DNA of 64,000 nt from an uncultured delta proteobacterium (GCA_963771175.1 CAVYSY010000005.1:10535-74534), one strand, 5' to 3'; positions 22,182-47,159 are shown, counted from the stretch's first letter. Notes: a model not told the origin generated them from the sequence alone. Numbers and translations are program-made.

Positions 22182-25100
22182 GTGTTCATCTCCGACTTCG
22201 CCATCAAGAAGCCCATCGTCACCATCACCGCCATGTTGGCGCTGGTGGTGTTCGGCCTGGTGGCGCTCGCTGGTGCTGCAGACGGACGAGTTCCCGGACA
22301 TCCAGCAGCCCATCATCAACGTCACCATCGCCTACCCGGGCGCCTCGCCGGAGGTGGTCGAGCGCGAGGTGGTGGAGCCCGTCGAGGACGCCCTCTTCAG
22401 CATCAGCGGGGTGGACGCCGCGAAGTCCACCTCCAGCGCCACGGACGGCCTCGCGCAGTTCACCGTCTTCTTCGACTACGAGAAGGACCTGCAGCAGGCG
22501 TCCCAGGACGTGCGCGACGCCATCTCCAGCAAGCGCAACGACCTGCCGCTGGAGATGGAGGAGCCCGTCCTCACGCGCTTCGATCCGGCGGACCTGCCCA
22601 TCATCTCGCTGGCCATCACCTCGGAGACGCTGCCGGCCACGGCGCTCACCCGGCTGGTGGACCCGGGCATCGTGGGCGAGCTGCGCTCCATTCCGGGCGT
22701 GGCCCAGGCCTCGGTGGTGGGCGGCATCGAGCGGGAGATGACGGTGTTCAGGTGCGCCCGGTGGCGCTGCAGGCCGCGGGGCTGAGCATCGCGCAGGTGG
22801 TGCAGGCGCTGCAGGCGCAGAACCTCGCGGCGCCGGTGGGCCGGCTGGACGGGCCGCTGGAGGAGACGCACCATCCGCCTCAAGGGCCGGCTGGAGACGC
22901 CCGAGGACTTCGCGCGCGTCGTCATCGCCGAGCGCGGCGGCCGTCCCATCCGCCTCGGCGCAGGTGGCCCAGGTGTTCGACGGCACCGAGGAGCCGCGCA
23001 CCCTGGCGCTCTACAACGGCGGCGAGGCGGTGGGCATCGACATCCTCAAGGCCAAGGGCTACAGCACCACCGAGGTGGCCGACGCCGTCCGCGAGCGCGT
23101 CGCCGAGCTCCAGCAGCACGCTGCCCGCGGGCGTGAAGCTGGAGATGGTGCGCGACGCGGGCGTGCGGGTGGAGCGAGGCGGTGGAGAACGTGCAGGGCG
23201 CGCTGCTGGAGGGCGCGCTGCTCACCGTGCTGGTGGTGTTCCTCTTCCTCAACTCGTGGCGCTCCACGGTGATCACGGGCCTGGCGCTGCCGGTGAGCGT
23301 GCTGGCCTCCTTCATCAGCGTGTGGGCGTTCGGCTTCACGCTCAACACCATGTCGCTGCTGGGCCTCGTCGCTGGCCATCGGCATCCTCATCGACGACGC
23401 CATCGTGGTGCGCGAGAACATCGTGCGCCACATCGAGCTGGGGAAGGACCACTACACGGCCTCGCGCGAGGGCACGAGCGAGATTGGCCTCGCGGTGGCG
23501 GCGACGACGTTCTCCATCGTGGCGGTGTTCGTCCCGGTGGCCTTCATGTACGGGGTGGCCGGGCAGTGGTTCAAGCCCTTCGCCCTCACCATCGCGTGCT
23601 CGGTGCTGGTGTCGCTCTTCGTGAGCTTCTCGCTGGACCCGATGCTCTCGGCGTACTGGCCGGACCCGGCGGTGGAGCAGGGGGCGCGCAAGGGCCCCAT
23701 CTCGCGGGTGCTCGTCGCGCTTCAACCACTGGTTCGACCGGCAGGCGGACCACTACAAGCGCGTCATCGCCTGGGCGCTGGACCACCGGCTGGCCATGGT
23801 GCTGTTGGCGGTGGGCTCGCTGGTGGGCGCGCTGGTGCTCCAGGCCACCCTGGGCGGGGCGGGCTTCGTCCCGGTGAGCGACCGCGCGGAGATTGAGATG
23901 CTGGTGGAGACGCCCGCCGGGCTCCAGCCTCGACTACACGCGGCGCAAGGTACGCGAGGTGTCCCGCCTCGCGCGCGAGCCACCCGGAGGTGGCGTACAC
24001 CTTCACCACCATCGGCACGCCGCTGCCGCTGCGCTCGCCGGGCGTGGACCAGGCGCTGGTGTACGTGCGGCTCGACGCCCAAGGCGAGCGCGAGCTGAGC
24101 CAGGAGGAGCTCGGCGTCATCCTGCGACAGGGAGATGGCGCGCGTGGCCGGGGCGAGGGTGTCCGTCTTCACCAGCGGCTTCGGCGGAGCCTTCAAGGCG
24201 ATTCAGTTGGAGCTGCGCGGGCCGGACGCGCGGGAGCTGTCGCGGCTGGCCGAGCAGGTGCGCCGCGAGGTGGAGCAGGTGCCGGGCGCGGTGGACGTGG
24301 GCCTGTCCACGCGCGGGCAGAAGCCGGAGGTGGAGGTGGAGGTGGACCGCGGCGTGGCGGGCCGGCTCGACGTGACGGTGGGCCAGGTGGCGCAGGCGCT
24401 GCGCGCGGCCTTCGCGGGAGTGGACTCGGGAGACTGGGTGGACCCCTCGGGCGAGACGCGCGACGTGGTGGTGCGGCTGGTCCCCGAATCCGCGCATGCG
24501 CCCGAGTGACCTGGTGCAGACTCCCCCTGGTGGCGGGCGCGGGGCCGGACGGCACGCCGGCGCTGGTGCCCCTGGGGCAGGTGGCGCGCATCCGCGAGAC
24601 GGTGGGGCCCGCTCAAATCAACCACCTCAACCGCGAGAGGGTCATCAACGTGCAGGCCAACGTGCAGGGGCGCTCGCTGTCGGAGGTGATGACGGACATC
24701 CGGGCGCGGATGGCGCAGGTGCGGCTGCCGCCGGGCTACGAGCTGAGCGAGGGCGGCGAGGCTCGCGACCAGGCCGAGGTGTTCGGCCGCGTCTTCCTCG
24801 CGCTCGCGGTGGCGGTGCTGCTGATGTACCTCATCCTGGTCATCCAGTTCGGCTCGTTCCTGGACCCGGTGGCCATCCTCGTCTCGCTGCCGCTGTCGCT
24901 CATCGGCGTGGTGCTGGCGCTGCTGGTGACGGGGGACACGCTCAACATCATGAGCCTCATCGGCGTCATCCTGCTGATGGGGATTGTCGCCAAGAACGCC
25001 ATCCTGCTCATCGACTTCGCCAAGTGGGCGCATACGCGGGGCAAGCCGATGCGGGAGGCGCTCATCGAGGCGGGGCGCATCCGCCTGCGGCCCATCATGA

Positions 25101-38112: not shown

Positions 38113-38244
38113 GCCCCCTCGGGGACCCCGTCTGGCGTGTCCCATCGGGCTCGGGAATAGGGGGGCCGTGTCGCCGTTGAGGGCGGCACGCTCGGGGGGC
38201 GGCCAACCGCTTTTCGAGTGCCCACGGGGACGGCACCACCACCC

Positions 38245-39522
38245 ATGCTCAAGAGATTCGTGAACGTGAAGGACGAGGAGGTGGGCTCGGTCCTGCTGGC
38301 CTTCGTGTACTTCTTCACGTTGATGTGTGGCTACGCCATCCTCAAGCCGCTGCGCGACGAGATGGCGACGGCGAAGGGCGTGAAGAACGTCTCGTGGCTC
38401 TTCACGGCGACCTTCGTGGTGATGCTGGTGGCGGTGCCGGCCTTCTCGGCGCTGGTGGCGCGCTGGCCGAGGCAGCGGGTCATCCCGCTCGTCTACCGCT
38501 TCTTCCTGGTCAACCTGTTGGCCTTCTTCGTGGTGCTGAAGCTGGACGTGGGGCGCGGCGTGGTGGCGCCCGCCTTCTTCGTCTGGGTGAGCGTCTACAA
38601 CCTCTTCGTCGTCTCCATCTTCTGGAGCTTCATGGCGGACCTGTTCGCGAGCGAGCAGGGCCGGCGCCTCTTCGGCTTCATCGCGGCGGGGGGCACGGCG
38701 GGCATGCTGGTGGGGCCCTTCCTGGTGACGCGCCTGGCCGAGCCGCTGGGTGCCACGAACCTGATGCTCGTCACCGCGGTGCTGCTGGAGGTCAGCGCGC
38801 AGTGCGTGCGGCTGTTGTCGCGCCGGGCCGCTGTCGTTCAGCCCCGGGCGGCCGTCGCCGAGGCTCCGGTGGGCGGGGACATCTTCGCCGGGCCGCGGCT
38901 GCTGTTCTCCTCGCCGCTGCTGCTGGGCCTGGGGCTGCAGATGCTCCTCTACGCCGCCACCTCCACCTTCCTCTACAACCAGCAGGCCCACATCGTGGCC
39001 ACGGTGGCCTCCGGCACCAACGCGCGCACCGCCGCCTTCGCCCACCTCGACTTCTGGGTGCAGGCCCTCACGCTCGTGCTGCAACTGGTGGTGACGGGGC
39101 GCCTCATGACGCGCTTCGGCCTGGGCCTGACGCTGGCGGTGGCGCCGGTGCTCACCGCGCTCGGCTTTCTCGGGCTGGCGATGGTGCCCACGATGCTGAT
39201 GCTCATCGGCTTCAAGTCACTGCGCGGTGCCACGCACTACGCCTTCGAGCGGCCCGGGCGCGAGGTCCTCTTCACCAGCGTGGACCGCGAGGCCAGATAC
39301 AAGTCCAAGGGCTTCATCGACACGGTGGTGTACCGCGGCAGTGACTCGGTGAGTGCCTGGCTGTACACGGGCCTCGACTCGCTGGGCCTGGGCGTGACGG
39401 CGCTGGCGCTGACCGCGGTGCCCTTCGCGGGCCTGTGGCTCACGGTGTCCCTGTGGCTCGCCCGGCAGCAGCAGCGCGCTCCCGCGCCCGCTTCGGCTCC
39501 CACGCTGACTCCCGCGCCGTAA
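38245..39522 (+). CDS. MFS transporter, NTP/NDP exchange (TLC/Npt)-like
   Basis: YAILKPLRD, FWSFMADLF, RLFGFIAAGG, ERPGREVLF, YKSKGFIDTVVYRGSD; about 12 TM segments. Confidence 0.82.
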   Translation: MLKRFVNVKDEEVGSVLLAFVYFFTLMCGYAILKPLRDEMATAKGVKNVSWLFTATFVVMLVAVPAFSALVARWPRQRVIPLVYRFFLVNLLAFFVVLKLDVGRGVVAPAFFVWVSVYNLFVVSIFWSFMADLFASEQGRRLFGFIAAGGTAGMLVGPFLVTRLAEPLGATNLMLVTAVLLEVSAQCVRLLSRRAAVVQPRAAVAEAPVGGDIFAGPRLLFSSPLLLGLGLQMLLYAATSTFLYNQQAHIVATVASGTNARTAAFAHLDFWVQALTLVLQLVVTGRLMTRFGLGLTLAVAPVLTALGFLGLAMVPTMLMLIGFKSLRGATHYAFERPGREVLFTSVDREARYKSKGFIDTVVYRGSDSVSAWLYTGLDSLGLGVTALALTAVPFAGLWLTVSLWLARQQQRAPAPASAPTLTPAP

Positions 39523-40434
39523 CGGCAAAAAAAATGGGGAATGTCTCGTTTGGAAGCGAGACATCCCCCATCACTGCGACCTCGACCTCACTGCCTTCCC
39601 CTCCTGCGGGCAGGAGTCGTCGGGTCGTCAGCCCTGGAACCCGGCCCCCGCCGGACTCCCGGGCTGGCCCCCCGGTGCAGGAGGGGGGCGAAACGCAAAA
39701 GCCCTACCAGCTATAGATGCCACCTTCGTCCACCACCTCGTCGAGGTCGTGGTTGTGCGCCGACTCCATCGGCTGGTTCCGGGAGCGGCGACCCGGGCTG
39801 AAACCCCAGCCCCCGGCCAGCACGAGAGAAGCCGACGTCAGGTGCGGAGACAGCGGCCGCACCGACGCGAGACAGGTCACCCCCGTGAGTGCCTCGCGCA
39901 GGGCGGCCGTTACCCGGGCCTCCATCAGCACCGCGAGCTGCGTGCGCTTCGCCCCCGCGAAGTACGCCACCCGCGGCACCTCCACCGTGTTTCCCCCCCC
40001 CCTGCCCGGCCGTCCTGGACAGACGGACCAGGTTCCTGGTCACCGACGCGCCCGGCTCCCCCCCCATATTCAGGACCAGGCCCATCCTCTCCCCGCCCGA
40101 CCGCTTCCCGTGGACCTGATGCCCCGCTGCCTTCATCCCGTTCTCAACCCTGAGCTGCATGGGCTCCTCCCCCCCTTGGCACGCCCGTGAGCGCGTGAGT
40201 GACGCGGGGGATAATGGCCAATCCCTGATCGGGAGTTTTCCGCTCGGACGCCAACCGCTTGCGTATGAGCGCCAAGCAGATGCGGAGCCCCGAAACGCGT
40301 TTCACGGGGGCGATCAAAATTCACGCACAGTGCCTGCTCGCTCGCTCCACGAGCGGACATTTTTGCTGAACGGCCTTGCAGGTAGGAGGCGGCATGTAGG
40401 GGTATGGTCGTGTCCGTTGGACGCGCTATGAGGG

Positions 40435-43400
40435 ATGACCATGGGTGACGGAGGACGGGGCGTGCTGGCCGTGGTGGCGGAGAAGCCATCCATGGCGCGC
40501 GACATCGCGCGGGCGCTGGGGGCTCGCGAGCAGGGCGAGGGGTGTTACCGGGGCAACGGCTACGTGGTGACGTGGGCCATCGGGCACCTGGTGGGACTGG
40601 CGCAGCCGCACGAGATGCGGCCCGAGTGGAAGCGCTGGCAGCGCGAGCTGCTGCCCATGCTCGCCGCGCGACTGGCCGCTGGTGGTGGAGGACAAGACGG
40701 CCTCCCAGTTCCAGGTGGTGCGCCGGGTGATGACCTCGCCCGAGGTGGACGCCGTGGTGTGCGCCACGGACGCCGGGCGCGAGGGCGAGCTCATCTTCCG
40801 CTACATCTACGAGGCCGCCGGGTGCCGCAAGCCGGTGCGGCGGCTGTGGGTGAGCTCGCTGACGGAGGGGGCCATCCGCGAGGGCTTCCGCGCGCTGAAG
40901 CCGGGGCGCGACTACGACGGGCTGGCGGACGCGGCCAAGGGGCGCAGCCGGGCGGACTGGCTGGTGGGGATGAACCTGTCGCGCCTCTACACGCTGGCGG
41001 GCGGGGACACGCTCTCGGTGGGTCGGGTGCAGACGCCCACGCTGGCCATGGTGGTGGAGCGCGAGCTGGCCATCCGCGACTTCGTCCCCAAGGAGTACCT
41101 GGAGGTGGTCGCCACCTTCGGCCCGGCGGGCCCCGAGGGGCCCCAGGGCAGCTACCAGGGCACCTGGTTCCGTCCCGCGGAGCCGGGCAAGGAGAAGGAG
41201 TGGGACTCGCGCGAGGCCCGGCGCCTGCCCGCGGACGGTGTGGAGGCGAAGGCGGTGGTGGCGCGCGTGCGAGGCGGGCCGCGCGGCCGTGGAGTCCGTC
41301 ACCGCCGAGACGAAGCGGATGGCGGCGCCGCTGCTCTACGATCTGACGGAGCTGCAGCGCCACGCCAACCGCCTGTACGGCTATCAGCGCCCAGCGCACC
41401 CTGGAGCTGGCGCAGGCGCTGTACGAGAAGCACAAGCTGTTGAGCTACCCGCGTACCGCCAGCCGGCATCTCTCGCAGTCGGTGGCGGAGACGCTGCCCG
41501 AGGTGGTGCGCGCCATCCGCGGGCCCTGGGAGGCGCTGCTCGCGCCCGGCACCGGGCAGAAGCCCGCTGGGGCGCCGCTTCGTGGACGACGCGAAGGTGA
41601 CGGACCACCACGCCATCATCCCGACGACGACCTCGCCCGAGGGCGCGAGCGCTCTCCCAGGACGAGCGGCGCATCTACGAGCTCGTCTGTCGTCGGCTGC
41701 TGGCGGCGTGGCACGAGGACTTCGTCTGGTTGGTGACGACCGTCATCACCGCCGTCACCTCGCTCGCCGCGAATGGGGGCTCGCCCGTGGTGGACCGCTT
41801 CCACAGCGCGGGCACCATGGTGGAGCGCGAGGGCTGGAAGGTGCTGGACGTCGGGGGAGGGCAGCGTGCCCCGAAGTCCCGCGAGGCGGGGAAGAAGAAG
41901 GAGGGCGAGGCCGAGGCGGAGGAGCCCGAGGACGAGCAGGAGCTGCCGCCGGGGCTGACGAAGGGGCTGGCGCGTGCGGTGCGCGAGGTGAAGCCGGTGA
42001 CGAAGCGGACGCGGCCCCCGCCTCGCCTCACGGACGCGAGCCTGCTCACGGCGATGGAGACGGCCGGGCGGGCGCTGGACGACAAGGAGCTGGCGGACGC
42101 GATGCGCGGAGTCGGGGCTGGGAACGCCCGCCACGCGCGCGGCCATCATCGAGACGCTGCTCGACCGTGGCTACCTGGTGCGGCGGGGCAAGGCGTTCGA
42201 GGCGACGGAGAAGGGCATCGGGCTCATCCGGGTGGTGCATCCGGACGTGAAGAGCCCGGCGATGACGGGGCAGTGGGAGGCGCTGGCTGCAGCGCATCGA
42301 GCGCGGCAGCGGAGACCTGGACTCCTTCCTCCGGGGCATCGAGGCCTACGTCATCGAGGTCGTGGGCAAGGTGCCCCCCTCGCTTCCCATGCCTCCTCCC
42401 ACCACGCCGCTGCTCCCGGCGGGAGCTCCGCGTGAGGCCGCGCACCCCGTGTCCAAACCCAGGAGCACCCGGGCTCCCAGCAGCACCCGGGCTCCCAGCG
42501 AGCCGACTCCGGCCTCCAGGTCATCCCGCAAGAATGCCGTGCTCCCCCTCGCGAACACCGTCCGGCCCGAGCGCACGCCCCGCGCGCCCACGCCACCGGA
42601 GGCCCTGCGCGGATTGCTGAAGGAGGTGTTCGGCTTCTCGGACTTCCGGCCGTACCAGGAAGCGGTGTGCCGCGCGGCGACCGAGGGCAAGGACCTGCTG
42701 CTGGTGATGCCCACCGGAGCGGGCAAGTCGCTCTGCTACCAGCTGCCCGGCCTCGCGCGGGCGGGCACGACGCTCGTCATCAGCCCGCTCATCGCGCTGA
42801 TGGAGGACCAGGTGGCGCGGCTGCAGTCGCTCGGGCTGGCGGCCGAGCGCATCCACTCGGGACGGGACAGGGCCACGTCGCGCCAGGTGTGCGCGGACTA
42901 CCTCGAGGGCCGGCTGGACTTCCTCTTCATCGCCCCCGAGCGGCTCGGGGTGCCCGGCTTCGTGGAGCTGCTGGCCCGGCGCACGCCCTCGCTGGTGGCC
43001 GTGGACGAGGCGCACTGCATCTCTCAGTGGGGGCACGACTTCCGCCCGGACTACCGGCTGCTGGGCACCCGCCTGCCGATGCTGCGCCCCGCGCCCGTCA
43101 TCGCGCTCACCGCCACCGCGACCCCGGACGTGCAGCACGACATCGTCCAGCAGCTCGGGCTCCAGGGACCGCGAGACAAGCCCGCGCGCACCTTCATCCA
43201 CGGTTTCCGGCGCACCAACATCGCCATCGAGGTGCGCGAGCTCAACCCGAGCCAGCGCGGCGACGCCATTCGCGAGCTGCTCGCCGAGCCCGAGCACCGT
43301 CCGGCCATTGTCTACGCCTCCACGCGCAAGCACGCGGAGCGGTACGCCGAGGCGCTCGGCGCGGACTTCTCCACCGGCATGTACCACGCGGGCATGAGCG

Positions 43401-44797
43401 CCTCGGATCGCGACGCGGTGCAGTCGGCGTTCCTCGGAGGCCGGCTGGAGGTCATCGTCGCGACGACGGCCTTCGGCATGGGCATCGACAAGGCGGACGT
43501 GCGCACCGTGGTCCACGCCGCGCTGCCGGCCAGCCTGGAGGGCTACTACCAGGAGCTGGGCCGCGCGGGCCGCGACGGGAAGCCCTCGCGCGCGGTGCTG
43601 CTGCACTCCTTCATCGACCGGCGCACGCACGAGTTCTTCCACGAGCGCGACTACCCCGAGCCCTCCGTCCTCGAGCGCCTCTACCGGGCCGCCCGCGACG
43701 AGCCGGAGCCCAAGGAGTCCCTCGCGGCCCGGGCGCGCGTGGCGTCGGATACCTTCGACAAGGCGCTCGAGCAGCTCTGGATTCACGGCGGCGTGGAGGT
43801 GACTCCAGACGAGTCCGTTCGCCGTGGGCGGCCGGGCTGGGCGGCCTCGTACTCGGCGCAGCGCGAGCACAAGCAGTCACAGCTCGACCACATGGCCCGC
43901 TACGCCGAGTCCCACGGATGCCGCATGCGGCACCTCGTGGCGCACTTCGGTGACCTGCAGGACTCGGGGGCGGCGTGCGGCCTGTGCGACGTCTGCGCGC
44001 CCGAATCCTGTGCCACCCTGCGTTTCGGCGAGCCCTCCGCCACCGAGGCCCAGGCACTCGCGCGCATCCTCGGGGCGCTCCACGAGCGCGATGCCCAGGC
44101 CACCGGCCGGCTCCACCGCGAGCTGTTCGGCGAGGCGCTGCCACGACGTGACTTCGAGCGGCTCCTCGGGGGTCTCGTGCGCGCCGGGCTCGTGCGTCTG
44201 TCCGAGGACACCTTCGAGAAGGATGGTCAGAACATCACCTTCCAGCGCGTGACGCTCACGCCCGAGGGCCGGCGCACGCACGAGCCCGCTCCGGGGCAGG
44301 TGCAACTGCCACGGGCTCCGGACGAGGCCCCCGCGCGCAAGCGCCGCGGCTCGAAGGCCAAGGGCTCGCGGACCAAGGTCTCCAAGGGGGGACGCACGCG
44401 CCGGACCTCACGCGGGAAGGCCGCCGATTCCTCCACCACCTGGTCGAAGGTCGAATACGAAGGGGACATGGCGGAGCCGGTGGCGGCGCCTCGCGCCCCT
44501 CGTGGCCGGGAGGCCCTCGCGCGGGCGCTGGAGCGCTCCAGGCGCAGCGGGGCGACGCTCGGTGTGGGCTCGGCCTCGCCCCGACTGGTGGAGGCCCTGC
44601 GCTCGTGGCGGCTCAACGAGGCCCGCAGGCGCCGCGTGCCCGCCTTCCGCATCCTCACCGACGCGGTGCTCGGCGCCATCGCCACCGCGTGCCCTCGGGA
44701 CGGCGCGGCGCTCCAGCGCATCCACGGTGTGGGCCCCAAGCTGACCGAGCGCTACGGCGACGCCATCCTCGCGCTCGTCGGCCACGAGTCGCCCTGA
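40435..44797 (+). CDS. topB: DNA topoisomerase III - RecQ helicase - HRDC fusion (topoisomerase half carries about 7 single-base insertions)
   Basis: Toprim AEKPS, ATDAGREGE, GRVQTPTL, catalytic SYPRT, DHHAIIPT, GLGTPATRA, MTGQWE; then in one frame LQRIERG...EVVGKV, linker, RecQ MPTGAGKS, VDEAHCISQWGHDFRPDY, ALTATA, AFGMGIDK, YYQELGRAGRDG, zinc-binding CR...CGLCDVC, HRDC LRSWR...VPAFRI. Confidence 0.85.
42464..42499 (+). repeat. 18-bp tandem duplication in the topoisomerase-RecQ linker
   Basis: AGCACCCGGGCTCCCAGC x2, encoding STRAPS x2. Confidence 0.8.
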
Positions 44798-44952
44798 GGC
44801 CCCAGTGCCCGTTGGACAACCCTCGTCCCGGCGGGGGGTGGTATTGCCATCTCGGTTTATGAGAAGGTGAGCATCCGTTCTCGACGCGAGCGGGGCTCTG
44901 CCGCAGGAGTCGCTTTCCTTGCTGGTGCCGATGAGGTGCCGAGGGGGCCGTC

Positions 44953-45531
44953 ATGCCGCTGGAGAAACTGGTCTTCGCCTCGACGGTCGAGTCGCTGTTC
45001 GTCCGGCAGCTCGGGGCGAGGTGGTCCCCCCACGACCGGGAGCGGCTGGCGGAGGCGGGGCTGGACCTGTCGCGGCCCCTCGCGGTCTCCTACCCGCTGG
45101 AGCAGTGGAAGACTTTCGTGCGCATCGCCGCCGAGGCGCTCTATCCGCGGCTCTCTCCCGTCGAGGCGCATCGGTGGATGGGCATCCACTTGCTGGAGGG
45201 CTACCTCCAGACGTTCCTGGGGAGCATGGTGGCGGAGCTGGCTCTGGCGCTGGGCCCGCTGCGCACGTTGGAGCGCGTCGGGCAGGACTTCCGCAGCGGC
45301 AACAACTTCAGCGAGGTGCGGGTGGTGGAGCTCTCGCCCCGTCACATCGAGCTGTGGATGAACGACGTCCTCTGTGAGCACCCCTCCTTCGCGGCGGGCT
45401 TCATCCTCCGGACACAGCATGTGGCCGGTGCGCGCGGCGCCTTCGTGGACGTGCGCTCCTTCGATGGCACCGCCTGCACCTTCGACGTCCGATGGCGGGA
45501 GGCCATCGTCCCCCAGGCCCTCAACGGCTGA
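44953..45531 (+). CDS. DUF2378 family protein (myxobacterial)
   Basis: LVFASTVESLF...GLDLSRPL..SYP..W, GPLRTLER, FRSGNNF. Confidence 0.8.
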   Translation: MPLEKLVFASTVESLFVRQLGARWSPHDRERLAEAGLDLSRPLAVSYPLEQWKTFVRIAAEALYPRLSPVEAHRWMGIHLLEGYLQTFLGSMVAELALALGPLRTLERVGQDFRSGNNFSEVRVVELSPRHIELWMNDVLCEHPSFAAGFILRTQHVAGARGAFVDVRSFDGTACTFDVRWREAIVPQALNG

Positions 45532-45536
45532 GGCGC

Positions 45537-46994
45537 CTACAGGTACGGCGACAGCAGCCGCGCCACGCCATCCCGCAGGCGGACGGGCAGCGAGCGGCCA
45601 TTCACCTCCTCCAGGGTGAGGAGTCGCGCCTTCGTGAGCCGCTCCTCGATGAGGGCGTCCAGGCGCGTGGCGAGCTCCGGGTCGTAGCACTCCACGTTGA
45701 ACTCGAAGTTGAGCCGCAGCGAGCGGGGGTCCCAGTTCGCCGAGCCCACCAGCGACCACGCCCCATCCACCACCATCAGCTTGGTGTGGTCGAACGGAGG
45801 CGCGGTGAGGAAGACGCGGCAGTTGGGGCGCATCACCTGCCAGAACTGCGCGGTGGCGGCCCATTGCACCACCGGGAGGTTGAGCCGCTCGGGCAGCACC
45901 ACGTCCACCCGCACGCCCCGCAGCGCCGCCACGTTCAGCGCCGTGACGAGCGCCGTGTCCGGGATGAAGTAGGGCGTGACGATGCGCACCGTGCTGCGCG
46001 CGCACGCCAGCGCGCCCAGCAGCGTCCAGCGCACCGTCTCGAAGTCCTCGTCCGGGCCGTCCGGAATCCCCCGGGCGAGCACCGGCCCGGCGGGCTCCAG
46101 CGGAGGGAACCACGCCTCCCCCTGCAGGCGCTCCTTCGTGGTGAAGGCCCAGTCCTCGGCGAACGTCTCCTGCAACTGCCCCACCACCGGTCCCTCCACG
46201 CGGAAGTGCAGGTCGCGGGCGTCGCCGTGGCCGGGCAGGAAGTGCTCGCGGATGTTCATCCCCCCGGTGAAGCCCACCCGCCCGTCCACCACCAGCAGCT
46301 TGCGGTGGTTGCGCAGGTTCATGAAGGGCAGGCGCGCGGGGAAGAGGAGCGTGGGGAGGAAGCGCGCCACCCGCACCCCGGCGCGGCGCAGGCGGCCGGT
46401 GACGGGCGGCCAGTGGTAGCGCACCCCCATCGCGTCGATGAGCACGCGCACCTGCACCCCGCGCTTCACCGCTCGCCCGAGCGCGTCCACGAAGCGCCGG
46501 CCCGCCTCGTCGTTGTCGAAGATGTAGCTGCACAGCGAGATGGAGGCGCGCGCCGCGTCGATGGCCTCCAGCATGGCCGGGTAGGCACCCGCGCCGGCCT
46601 CCAGCGGGACGAGCCGGTTGCCCGGCAGCAGGGGGCGGTGGTGAATCACCTCGTCCACCAGGCGGGCGAGCGAGGCGAGATGCTCGGCCGGAGGCACCGC
46701 CGTCGCCAGCGTCTCGGGGGTGCACGCGGGCACACCCGACCGGGGCGGGAACTGGCCGTGCTCCTGGCGCAGCGTCAGCGAGCGGCCCCGGCGGCGGATG
46801 CGGTTGATGCCCAGCAGCAGGTACAGCACCACGCCCACCAGCGGAACCAGCCACACCAGTCCCACCCAGGCCACCGCCGCGCGCACGTCCCGCTTGCGCA
46901 GCACCGCGTGCCCGGTGGCCAGGACATTGGCCAGCACCGTGAACACCGCCGCCACATGGGGCCATATCGCCAGGAGCAGCGATTCCAGCGTCAT
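45537..46994 (-). CDS. cls: Cardiolipin synthase (PLD family)
   Basis: Two N-terminal TM segments, two HKD motifs (RNHRKLLVVDG, DHTKLMVVDG), GSANWDPRSLRLNFE. Confidence 0.92.
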   Translation of the reverse strand: MTLESLLLAIWPHVAAVFTVLANVLATGHAVLRKRDVRAAVAWVGLVWLVPLVGVVLYLLLGINRIRRRGRSLTLRQEHGQFPPRSGVPACTPETLATAVPPAEHLASLARLVDEVIHHRPLLPGNRLVPLEAGAGAYPAMLEAIDAARASISLCSYIFDNDEAGRRFVDALGRAVKRGVQVRVLIDAMGVRYHWPPVTGRLRRAGVRVARFLPTLLFPARLPFMNLRNHRKLLVVDGRVGFTGGMNIREHFLPGHGDARDLHFRVEGPVVGQLQETFAEDWAFTTKERLQGEAWFPPLEPAGPVLARGIPDGPDEDFETVRWTLLGALACARSTVRIVTPYFIPDTALVTALNVAALRGVRVDVVLPERLNLPVVQWAATAQFWQVMRPNCRVFLTAPPFDHTKLMVVDGAWSLVGSANWDPRSLRLNFEFNVECYDPELATRLDALIEERLTKARLLTLEEVNGRSLPVRLRDGVARLLSPYL

Positions 46995-47159
46995 CCCTCC
47001 TCCGCCCGGCCGCGTCGAGACGGGGCTGGGGGACAGTATGTGCACGGTCGTCCGGGTGTGGCGCGGGCGGGCCGGAGGGCTCCGTCCAGCATCCTTCAGA
47101 GGTGCGCTTCAGGGGGGCTCTTCAGGGGGACTCCCCAGGGGTGCATATACTGCGGTGCC

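What the first reader, a model, noticed from the sequence alone, without database searches (positions are those of the whole stretch)
40435..44797. Topoisomerase III fused to RecQ helicase and HRDC in one polypeptide
Seen: the conserved end of the type IA topoisomerase core (W-LQRIERGSGDLDSFLRGIEAYVIEVV, about 42284-42364) is in the same frame as the RecQ ORF 42362..44797, with no stop. An approximately 80-aa Pro/Ser linker joins them. All frameshifts lie upstream, inside the topoisomerase half, and look like +1 insertions. Known: RecQ and Top3 cooperate as separate proteins (E. coli RecQ-TopB; Sgs1/BLM-Top3 dissolvasome), and reverse gyrase is a helicase-topoisomerase IA fusion with the opposite domain order and a non-RecQ helicase. 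Inference: this is a single-chain decatenase or Holliday-junction dissolvase of about 1450 aa. Similar fusions may already be annotated in other myxobacteria, but I know of no functional characterisation. The active site reads YPRTAS rather than the usual YPRTDS.
Basis: partly seen in the sequence, partly recalled or inferred. Interest (0 to 1): 0.8.

Follow-up and report, generated by a model that had tools for sequence, protein, structure and literature searches.

The report
Topoisomerase III–RecQ fusion gene, misassembled
This soil myxobacterium encodes its DNA-untangling enzyme (topoisomerase III) and its partner motor (RecQ helicase) as one long protein, a fusion shared by many relatives but apparently unstudied; the seven frame breaks seen here are most likely assembly errors.

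Summary
Window 40435-44797 (+) carries a type IA topoisomerase broken into eight frame pieces. The last piece runs without a stop into an 811-aa RecQ/HRDC frame.

The breaks are seven single-base insertions. Contigs of three public runs lack all seven, and a fourth lacks six. This assembly has 1215 insertion-like frame switches genome-wide (123.6 per Mb, against 5.7 per Mb in relatives' loci). They are very probably assembly errors, not a pseudogene. Leaving the seven bases out gives 1451 aa with no stop.

The fusion itself is real:
- Same-genus (Archangium) genomes have one intact frame of 1451-1494 aa.
- 43 of 63 loci from a species-wide collection carry both halves in one frame; depositors label 29 Acidobacteriota, 11 Myxococcota and 3 others.
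- In five complete genomes of the genus it is the only topoisomerase III.

Databases already list it as "DNA topoisomerase 3" or "RecQ". Six literature searches found no study of it. Two earlier notes of this scan reported the same fusion on other DNA.

The likely function, inferred and not shown, is a flexibly tethered RecQ-Topo III unlinking machine. It is possibly DNA-damage regulated.

The parts
40366..40382 (+). Conserved upstream box CTGAACGRCCTTGCAGG, a candidate LexA-type operator about 50-70 nt before the start codon.
   Evidence: It is an invariant block in a 9-sequence alignment of otherwise variable upstream DNA. The core pattern is found once before the gene in the same-genus loci that include upstream DNA. 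It matches a recalled M. xanthus LexA-box consensus at 16 of 17 positions. Other sites with at most 1 mismatch in this genome lie before recA, a RecN/SMC-like gene and a gyrA-like gene.
40435..44797 (+). Whole Topo III-linker-RecQ-HRDC gene as it stands in the assembly, with 7 extra bases.
   Evidence: With the 7 bases left out it is 4356 nt and 1451 aa, with no internal stop.
40435..42361 (+). Topoisomerase III half (Toprim plus the type IA core). It includes the TDAGREGE Toprim motif and the active-site Tyr codon at 41446-41448.
   Evidence: Pfam on the pieces and on intact orthologues. NCBIfam 'DNA topoisomerase 3' NF005829 scores 663.3 bits against a cut-off of 597. E. coli Topo III 2o19 matches at 3.1e-86 over residues 13-667.
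40662..40662 (+). Extra base 1 (frame +1).
41270..41270 (+). Extra base 2.
41384..41384 (+). Extra base 3.
41563..41563 (+). Extra base 4.
41649..41650 (+). Extra base 5 (one of these two positions).
42107..42107 (+). Extra base 6.
42282..42282 (+). Extra base 7.
42362..42607 (+). Pro/Ala/Ser/Arg-rich linker of 82 aa.
   Evidence: Linker length is 48-292 aa (median 131.5) in 124 fused relatives.
42647..43579 (+). RecQ helicase motor (DEAD 42647-43132, Helicase_C 43262-43579).
   Evidence: GAGKS and DEAH motifs.
43661..43834 (+). Extra helix-and-strand insert between the motor and the zinc module. It is winged-helix-like in the model.
   Evidence: Secondary structure of the AlphaFold2 model, residues about 363-420. 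Only positions 18-65 of the Pfam RecQ_Zn_bind model match.
43853..43996 (+). RecQ zinc-binding module with four conserved Cys.
   Evidence: invariant C1157, C1176, C1179 and C1182 in alignment A1.
44039..44257 (+). Winged-helix (RQC-like) domain.
   Evidence: Model residues 489-561 form three helices and a beta-hairpin. Foldseek aligns 601-610 columns to RecQ catalytic cores 4tmu and 1oyw. Pfam RQC was not detected.
44324..44500 (+). Disordered Arg/Lys-rich spacer.
   Evidence: pLDDT below 50 for model residues 584-642; composition.
44582..44779 (+). HRDC domain.
   Evidence: Pfam E 1.3e-19.

Best explanation
In the living organism this is most likely an intact gene for a 1451-aa protein. An N-terminal topoisomerase III (Toprim plus type IA core) is joined by a flexible, disordered linker of about 80 aa to a complete RecQ helicase. 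The RecQ half has the motor, a zinc module, a winged helix, a basic spacer and HRDC.

The seven frame breaks in the window are single-base insertion errors of a long-read-like assembly.

Inferred mechanism: RecQ uses ATP to unwind duplex DNA 3'->5' at forks, gaps or joint molecules. This hands single-stranded DNA to the tethered Topo III. Topo III cuts one strand with its active-site tyrosine and passes another strand through, which unlinks late replication intermediates, hemicatenanes and double Holliday junctions. The tether replaces the protein-protein contacts or SSB/Rmi1 bridging used elsewhere and fixes a 1:1 ratio. Because the fusion is the only Topo III in complete genomes of the genus, all Topo III action there would be helicase-coupled.

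A conserved LexA-like box upstream suggests induction by DNA damage.

Shown here: the architecture, its conservation, the catalytic motifs and the artefactual nature of the breaks. Inferred: the activity, the coupling and the regulation.
For: The breaks are artefacts:
- Contigs of X20, X1 and X2 lack all seven bases. X3 lacks six; at 42282 its only cover (depth 3.2) does not show the omission, and its listed contig ends at 42281.
- The runs come from two studies. The X20 contig (14,015 nt) differs from the window at 46 letters and 7 gaps. One X2 contig of 414 nt (41886-42301) has 0 other letters and differs only by the two extra bases.
- Genome-wide there are 1215 insertion-like against 329 deletion-like same-strand frame switches without a stop. 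That is 123.6 per Mb, against 5.7 per Mb (2 in 348,894 bases) in same-genus loci. 30% of gaps between events are under 1 kb, against 11.6% expected for a Poisson process.
- A second cluster of 14 insertion events lies in an AcrB-family gene at 22270-24518.
- The RecQ paralogue on contig C26 is also split between frames.
- Assembly completeness is 81.66%.
- Leaving the 7 bases out gives 1451 aa with 0 stops. The topo half is then 95.9% and the RecQ half 94.4% identical to the G011 orthologue.

The fusion is real:
- Intact ORFs of 1451-1494 aa occur in relatives, with the full domain set in the two scanned.
- The 120 best database hits are all Topoisom_bac plus RecQ-domain proteins.
- 43 of 63 genome-contig loci have one frame over both halves.
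- In the listed rows of a 251-genome phylum sample, 80 genomes have an open frame of at least 1300 aa.
- 5 of 5 complete genomes of the genus have exactly two type IA topoisomerases: one of about 900 aa and the fusion.

Catalytic equipment:
- E16, K17, D112, E116, Y337, R339, K759 (GAGKS), DEAH 852-855 and four Cys are invariant in 12 diverse members.
- NF005829, TIGR01056 and TIGR00614 all score above their cut-offs.
- E. coli Topo III aligns through its decatenation-loop region with only a one-residue gap.
- The RecQ-half model has pLDDT 78.4 and matches RecQ cores at target-normalised TM 0.65-0.69.

Flexible tether: linker length is 48-292 aa, rich in A/G/P/R/S.
Against: No biochemical or genetic data exist for any member, as far as six searches show.

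None of the runs laid is proven to be the source sample, so a strain-specific pseudogene is not formally excluded.

Nonsynonymous/synonymous codon differences are somewhat higher in the topo half (26/37) than in the RecQ half (41/87). Part of this may come from misplaced error bases next to the insertions.

In Myxococcaceae the acidic residue after YPRT, which is Asp in E. coli Topo III and in the non-Myxococcaceae fusions examined (13 of 15 sampled loci, two of them unfused Clostridia enzymes), is Ala, Ser or Gly. Its role is unknown to me.

The recQ equivalog model TIGR01389 scores below its cut-off (463.7 against 640.2).

The LexA-box consensus is recalled, not taken from a call. No sigma-70-like promoter was found. 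In M. xanthus the protein called RecQ (MXAN_1950) was not significantly changed in a lexA mutant (supplement row), but I could not establish whether that protein is the fusion.
Confidence: 0.8

Rival explanations
1. The gene is a true pseudogene in this strain. The topoisomerase half has decayed through seven frameshifts, and only a stand-alone RecQ (from GTG 42362 or a later start) is made.
For: The sequence as deposited has seven frameshifts. None of the runs laid is proven to be the source sample. The non/syn ratio is a little higher in the topo half.
Against: All seven changes are insertions, with no deletion and no stop-creating substitution. Near-identical contigs lack them. The same one-base-insertion pattern hits an unrelated AcrB gene and about 1200 places genome-wide, roughly 20 times the rate in relatives' loci. 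The read-through protein is 95.9% identical to the orthologue. The fusion is the only Topo III in complete genomes of the genus.
Confidence: 0.04
2. The fusion is a tightly coupled ATP-driven topoisomerase in the manner of reverse gyrase. It would introduce positive supercoils or drive ATP-dependent relaxation, rather than act as a loosely tethered unlinking pair.
For: Helicase plus type IA topoisomerase in one chain is the reverse gyrase principle. Both halves are strongly conserved together across phyla, at 53-66% identity in the best segment for the non-Archangium full-length loci, with an Oligoflexus locus at 44% and one Solibacteraceae locus at 49%.
Against: The domain order is inverted. 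The helicase is a complete RecQ with zinc module, WH and HRDC, not the reverse gyrase helicase-like module. The reverse gyrase model TIGR01054 scores 108.2 bits against a cut-off of 471.7. The linker is long, of low complexity and varies from 48 to 292 aa, which argues against a fixed latch-type interface.
Confidence: 0.1
3. The fusion belongs to a mobile element or an anti-phage defence system rather than to chromosome maintenance.
For: RecQ-like helicases occur in defence systems. The helicase half gives a sub-threshold match to DpdF (215.1 bits against 550). The patchy spread over several phyla suggests horizontal transfer.
Against: There is one copy per genome, in a conserved place in the genus, with flanking DNA matching in G011, G006 and G014. 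The neighbours are an MFS-like transporter, a DUF2378 protein and a PLD-family enzyme, with no defence or mobility genes. It is present in 80 of 103 sampled genomes of the family.
Confidence: 0.03

Closest known systems
E. coli RecQ + topoisomerase III (TopB), with SSB
   Same: The two enzyme families are the same. E. coli Topo III (2o19/1d6m) matches residues 13-667 at E 3e-86, including the decatenation-loop region. E. coli RecQ core (1oyw) matches 718-1055 at E 6.7e-82. The cooperative strand-passage activity is known from established work (recalled: Harmon, DiGate & Kowalczykowski 1999; Suski & Marians 2008).
   Different: Here the two are one chain, Topo III first, with a 48-292-aa disordered tether. 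The basic C-terminal tail of E. coli Topo III is replaced by the linker. The Toprim motif reads D-A-G where E. coli has D-P-D. RecQ carries an extra insert before the zinc module.
Eukaryotic dissolvasome (BLM/Sgs1-Top3-Rmi1)
   Same: A RecQ-family helicase works with a Topo III-type enzyme. BLM cores match at E about 1e-66 and TOP3A weakly at E 4e-14.
   Different: Those are non-covalent complexes that need the OB-fold partner Rmi1, and Top3 binds the helicase N-terminus. No Rmi1-like part was seen or looked for here, and the topoisomerase is N-terminal and covalent.
Reverse gyrase
   Same: It is a natural single-chain helicase-type IA topoisomerase. A 2020 paper's significance statement (PMC7245102, seen in the listing) calls such a fusion unique to hyperthermophiles.
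   Different: The domain order is opposite, the helicase module is not RecQ, and the coupling is tight through a latch. TIGR01054 scores 108.2 bits against 471.7.
Unfused Firmicutes-type topoisomerase III (NCBIfam NF005829 / PRK07726 type)
   Same: This is the best-scoring NCBIfam model (663.3 bits). Stand-alone Clostridia homologues (L119 at 767 aa, L128 at 705 aa; 40-45% identity) share TDAGREGE and YPRTDSR.
   Different: They have no helicase attached.
Database orthologues named 'DNA topoisomerase 3' / 'recombinase RecQ' (Archangium, Cystobacter, Stigmatella, Hyalangium, Corallococcus, Myxococcus xanthus 1592-1597 aa)
   Same: Same gene and same architecture, at 66-97% identity.
   Different: Those records are intact. 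The window copy carries seven extra bases. The database names hide the fusion.

Membership tests
Topoisomerase III (type IA, topB subfamily) | Toprim domain followed by the type IA core, scoring above curated family thresholds. | tested here: met
   On orthologue P0002: NF005829 663.3 against 597, and TIGR01056 552.3 against 515.75. Pfam Toprim and Topoisom_bac (E 1.7e-107) are present. In the window the same domains are present but split over frames.
Topoisomerase III (type IA, topB subfamily) | Active-site tyrosine with the following Arg, and the Toprim acidic residues. | tested here: met
   Y337, R339, E16, D112 and E116 are invariant in 12 diverse members. The second Asp of E. coli's D-x-D is Gly (TDAGREGE) in 120 of 122 proteins, and also in unfused Clostridia Topo III. 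The residue after YPRT is A/S/G in Myxococcaceae.
Topoisomerase III (type IA, topB subfamily) | Topo III-specific decatenation loop (E. coli residues about 502-519; numbering recalled). | tested here: inconclusive
   The region aligns to E. coli Topo III with only a one-residue gap, so an insert of that length is present. It is less basic than in E. coli. No function was tested.
RecQ helicase family | SF2 motor with Walker A and DEAH motifs, scoring above the family threshold. | tested here: met
   TIGR00614 recQ_fam scores 381.1 against 219.8. DEAD and Helicase_C are found, with GAGKS and DEAH motifs. The stricter equivalog TIGR01389 scores 463.7 against 640.2, so that one is not met.
RecQ helicase family | RecQ-C region: a four-Cys zinc module and a winged helix. 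| tested here: met
   RecQ_Zn_bind E 7.9e-10 and four invariant Cys. A winged helix is seen in the model and covered by Foldseek alignments to 4tmu and 1oyw. Pfam RQC was not detected.
RecQ helicase family | HRDC domain. | tested here: met
   PF00570 E 1.3e-19 at ORF residues 741-806.
Reverse gyrase | N-terminal helicase-like module and C-terminal type IA topoisomerase, matching the rgy model. | tested here: not met
   The order is inverted. TIGR01054 scores 108.2 against 471.7.
RecQ-Top3-Rmi1 dissolvasome | ATP-dependent dissolution of double Holliday junctions; an Rmi1 OB-fold partner. | not testable with these tools
   This needs biochemistry. No search for an Rmi1-like protein was made.

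The most novel reading that the evidence does not exclude
The covalent Topo III-RecQ protein is not just two enzymes on a string. It would be a distinct ATP-coupled strand-passage machine and the sole Topo III of these bacteria. It would be switched on by DNA damage through the conserved LexA-like box, and would dissolve joint molecules or unlink sister chromosomes without any SSB or Rmi1-type adaptor. The lineage-specific loss of the acidic residue next to the catalytic tyrosine in Myxococcaceae would reflect altered metal or cleavage-religation chemistry, tuned to helicase coupling.
Probability: 0.25. Interest if true: 0.75.

Novelty: new variant of a known kind. Interest (0 to 1): 0.5.

Why it matters
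RecQ-Topo III cooperation is conserved from bacteria to humans, where the BLM-TOP3A complex suppresses crossovers and genome instability. How helicase and topoisomerase are coupled is hard to study in multi-protein complexes.

A natural fusion with fixed 1:1 stoichiometry is present in many cultivable, harmless soil bacteria, including the genetic model Myxococcus xanthus, and is the only Topo III in complete genomes of this genus. It offers a ready-made single-chain system for biochemistry, single-molecule work and structure determination. It also contradicts the printed view that only reverse gyrase fuses these two functions.

For this particular record the practical message is different. 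The gene looks broken only because the assembly carries on the order of a thousand or more single-base insertion errors. These will also break many other gene calls in it.

Tried and rejected
- **Real pseudogene or programmed frameshifting.** Rejected for the reasons given under the rival explanations.
- **The D-x-G Toprim motif as a fusion-specific defect.** Rejected: the same TDAGREGE occurs in unfused Clostridia Topo III (L119, L128).
- **YPRTAS as a sign of inactivity.** Not supported: the position varies (A 56, S 43, D 20, G 2, no match 1, of 122) in otherwise highly conserved proteins.
- **Mapping the M. xanthus protein called RecQ (MXAN_1950) onto the fusion.** MXAN_1950 is induced by mitomycin C in the supplement table of PMC12288472. 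A search for the locus tag found no paper, and the cluster look-up gave other accessions. This stays unresolved. From its position in complete genomes I suspect MXAN_1950 is the stand-alone paralogue, but that is a guess.
- **Sigma-70 promoter scan of 39400-45600.** 0 sites found.
- **Rfam scan of 39000-64000.** Nothing in the 900-nt upstream spacer, only the rRNA operon.
- **Literature.** Six searches for the fusion found no paper on a bacterial Topo III-RecQ fusion. One search found no paper holding the recalled LexA-box string. Most subscription-journal papers are not in the library searched.
- **Not run.** Complex prediction, a fold of the topoisomerase half, and a phylogeny to count fusion and fission events.
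Full report
**What is in the window.** Between 40435 and 44797 on the + strand, the ORF listing shows a chain of overlapping reading frames, each shifted by +1 from the one before. It ends in an 811-aa ORF at 42362-44797.

Pfam finds pieces of the bacterial type IA topoisomerase core in three of the seven upstream pieces, plus a weak Toprim match. In the last ORF it finds DEAD, Helicase_C, RecQ_Zn_bind and HRDC. The frame of that ORF is open back to a TGA at 42263. It encodes the conserved end of the topoisomerase core directly followed by the linker and RecQ.

**The frame breaks.** A global alignment with the closest orthologue found (G011; 94.4% identity, 4105 of 4348 aligned bases) shows exactly seven one-base insertions in the window. 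They lie at 40662, 41270, 41384, 41563, 41649/50, 42107 and 42282. The RecQ half has only in-frame differences.

Four lines of evidence say these are errors of the assembly.

1. I laid Logan contigs of four public runs from two studies on the stretch.
   - X20, X1 and X2 lack all seven bases.
   - X3 lacks six. At 42282 its only cover (depth 3.2) does not show the omission, and its listed contig ends at 42281.
   - The X20 contig (14,015 nt) differs from the window at only 46 letters and 7 gaps.
   - An X2 contig of 414 nt is identical to the window except for the two extra bases it spans.
2. A blastn of the whole window against 11 loci of G011 shows a second cluster: 14 insertion events (13 of one base, 1 of two) and one deletion between 22270 and 24518. 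This lies in an unrelated AcrB-family transporter gene.
3. I ran a codon-position GC scan of my own that finds same-strand frame switches without a nearby stop.
   - It re-found six of the seven sites.
   - Genome-wide it counts 1215 insertion-like against 329 deletion-like switches.
   - That is 123.6 per Mb, against 5.7 per Mb (2 events in 348,894 bases) in the same-genus loci fetched.
   - The events are clustered: 30% of gaps are under 1 kb, against 11.6% expected.
4. The assembly scores only 81.66% completeness in 58 contigs, and its second RecQ paralogue is also split between frames.

Leaving the seven bases out in a script gives 4356 nt and 1451 aa with no internal stop. The topo half is then 95.9% and the RecQ half 94.4% identical to the G011 protein. 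Nonsynonymous/synonymous codon differences are 26/37 in the topo half and 41/87 in the RecQ half. None of the runs is proven to be the source sample, so a strain-specific pseudogene is not formally excluded. I put it at about 4%.

**The fusion is real and conserved.**
- Same-genus genomes have one intact ORF: 1451 aa (L002), 1455 aa (L003, L004) and 1494 aa (L005). Open frames run through both halves in L011 and L012.
- Two of these proteins carry Toprim, Topoisom_bac (E 1e-102 to 1e-107), DEAD, Helicase_C, RecQ_Zn_bind and HRDC in that order.
- A search of 5.8 billion proteins returned 6211 hits at E <= 1e-20 among the 8000 candidates scored. The 120 best all carry Topoisom_bac, DEAD, Helicase_C and RecQ_Zn_bind, are 1163-1721 aa long, and are 58-97% identical.
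- Their sources name them 'DNA topoisomerase 3', 'DNA topoisomerase III', 'ATP-dependent DNA helicase RecQ' or 'recombinase RecQ'. The organisms are Archangium, Cystobacter, Hyalangium, Stigmatella, Corallococcus, Myxococcus, Pyxidicoccus, Aggregicoccus and Thermoanaerobaculia. The M. xanthus members are 1592-1597 aa.

In the one-genome-per-species collection, 63 loci were kept out of at least 621 matching stretches. They sort as follows:

| Class | Loci |
|---|---|
| One stop-free frame over both halves | 43 |
| Both halves adjacent but not in one frame | 3 |
| RecQ half only (several with 3 kb of upstream DNA and no topoisomerase) | 12 |
| Topoisomerase only (two are stand-alone Clostridia enzymes, three are cut by contig ends) | 5 |

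Of the 43 single-frame loci, depositors label 29 as Acidobacteriota lineages, 11 as Myxococcota, and one each as Solirubrobacteraceae, Oligoflexus and 'Proteobacteria'.

In a sample of 251 genomes of the phylum, 138 have a match at E <= 1e-90, and 80 of 103 in the window's own family do. In the rows listed, 80 genomes have an open frame of at least 1300 aa around the match. That count leaves out the window's own genome and the unpublished G183, and 81 further match rows were not listed.

In five of five complete genomes of the genus, the only type IA topoisomerases are one of about 900 aa and the fusion. The own genome shows the same two. So in this genus Topo III exists only tethered to RecQ.

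**Anatomy.**

*Topoisomerase half.* It passes the curated thresholds of NCBIfam 'DNA topoisomerase 3' (663.3 against 597) and topB (552.3 against 515.75). It aligns to E. coli Topo III over residues 13-667 at E 3e-86. This includes the stretch that holds the E. coli decatenation loop, with only a one-residue gap.

Catalytic residues are invariant in 12 diverse members. Two deviations from E. coli were checked:
- The Toprim motif is TDAGREGE (D-x-G, not D-x-D) in 120 of 122 proteins. It is also so in unfused Clostridia Topo III, so it is a subfamily trait.
- The residue after YPRT is A (56), S (43), D (20) or G (2), with no match in 1 of the 122. Of 15 sampled genome-contig loci (13 fusions from outside Myxococcaceae plus the two unfused Clostridia enzymes), 13 read YPRTDSR, one YPRTNSR and one YPRSDSR. 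The change is therefore specific to Myxococcaceae.

*Linker.* It is 82 aa here (P 21, A 11, S 9, R 9, T 8). In 124 relatives it is 48-292 aa (median 131.5) and rich in A/G/P/R/S.

*RecQ half.* It passes recQ_fam (381.1 against 219.8) but not the recQ equivalog (463.7 against 640.2). An AlphaFold2 model of window residues 42575-44794, built with 30 homologues, has pLDDT 78.4. It shows, in order:
- the two RecA-like domains;
- an extra helix-and-strand insert of about 60 residues before the zinc module;
- the zinc module;
- a winged helix;
- a disordered basic spacer (residues 584-642, pLDDT below 50);
- the HRDC domain.

Foldseek's best matches are RecQ catalytic cores: 4tmu at E 2e-30 and 1oyw at E 7e-29, with target-normalised TM 0.65-0.69 and 601-610 aligned columns.

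**Surroundings.** Upstream is an MFS-like transporter gene (38218-39522), ending in a hairpin, and then about 900 nt without a convincing gene. Downstream are a DUF2378 gene (44953-45531) and a convergent PLD-family gene (45537-47045). None is linked to DNA metabolism.

In nine Archangium upstream regions, two islands stand out of variable DNA. One is at about 40247-40275. The other is an invariant CTGAACGRCCTTGCAGG at 40366-40382, and its core pattern occurs once before the gene in all same-genus loci that include upstream DNA. It matches a 17-nt M. xanthus LexA-box consensus that I recall (Campoy et al. 2003; not verified in any call) at 16 of 17 positions.

The genome has 11 sites with at most one mismatch. 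One precedes recA, one a RecN/SMC-like ATPase, and the single exact one a gyrA-like gene. The others precede unrelated or unassigned ORFs. This is a lead for damage-inducible expression, not a finding.

**Mechanism.** The parts shown are a complete Topo III and a complete RecQ on a flexible, length-variable tether. From established knowledge of E. coli RecQ/Topo III/SSB and of the eukaryotic BLM-TOP3A-RMI complex (recalled), the most likely action is helicase-fed single-strand passage. RecQ opens duplex DNA at converging forks, gaps or double Holliday junctions, and the tethered Topo III unlinks the strands.

The variable, disordered linker argues for proximity and stoichiometry rather than a rigid reverse-gyrase-like latch. 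A reverse-gyrase-like supercoiling activity is a minor rival (about 10%), and a defence or mobile-element role is less likely still.

**Novelty.** The fusion is in public databases under names that hide it. Six full-text searches found no paper on it. A 2020 paper's significance statement, seen in the search listing, says hyperthermophiles 'uniquely' fused the two functions as reverse gyrase (PMC7245102). The library lacks most subscription journals, so 'not in print' is only as strong as those searches.

Two earlier notes of this scan (e1-6721993 and e1-7193247) reported the same fusion in other genomes and reached the same view. I re-tested their claims here (real fusion, several phyla, no paper found), and they hold.

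I class it as a new variant of a known kind: a covalent form of the RecQ-Topo III partnership. This particular record adds only a damaged copy and a warning about the assembly.

Noticed in passing
window 22270-24518 (- strand gene): An AcrB/AcrD/AcrF-family RND transporter gene carries 14 insertion events (13 of one base, 1 of two) and one deletion relative to the G011 orthologue. This is the same error pattern as in the topoisomerase half.
   Followed up: partly
whole genome G000 (58 contigs): A codon-position GC scan finds 1215 insertion-like and 329 deletion-like frame switches without a stop. That is about 20 times the rate in same-genus loci, and the events are clustered in patches. Gene calls from this assembly will be badly fragmented.
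   Followed up: yes
G000:C26:129711-131361: The second, stand-alone RecQ-family gene of this genome is also split between two frames at about 130264.
   Followed up: no
window 59182-64000: An rRNA operon: 16S at 59182-60717, a tRNA at 60904-60977, and 23S from 61301 to the window end (cut). G006 has four copies of this stretch.
   Followed up: yes
window 40247-40275: A second conserved island (GACGCCAACCGCTTGCGTA...GCGCCA) lies in the otherwise variable upstream region of the fusion gene in nine Archangium sequences. Its role is unknown.
   Followed up: no
window 43661-43834: A conserved insert of about 60 residues lies between the RecQ motor and the zinc module. The model predicts three helices and two short strands (winged-helix-like). 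It is not part of the Pfam RecQ_Zn_bind match.
   Followed up: partly
G000:C33:215732 (locus L140, site 1501-1517): The only exact match in the genome to the recalled LexA-box consensus lies 36 nt before an ORF with a gyrase/topoisomerase IV subunit A domain.
   Followed up: partly
window 39533-39572: A 16-pair hairpin with a T-run follows the MFS-like gene and looks like a bidirectional terminator. The roughly 900 nt between it and the fusion gene hold no Rfam family.
   Followed up: partly
loci L117, L118, L122, L124, L127, L129, L130, L131: Stand-alone RecQ genes are 48-64% identical to the RecQ half of the fusion. By record title the eight are Polyangium, Nannocystis, Holophagales, Pseudacidobacterium, Candidatus Sulfomarinibacteraceae, candidate division WWE3, one labelled Acidobacteria and one labelled only 'bacterium'. 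They have 3 kb of upstream DNA without a topoisomerase. These are either the unfused ancestor form or secondary fissions.
   Followed up: no
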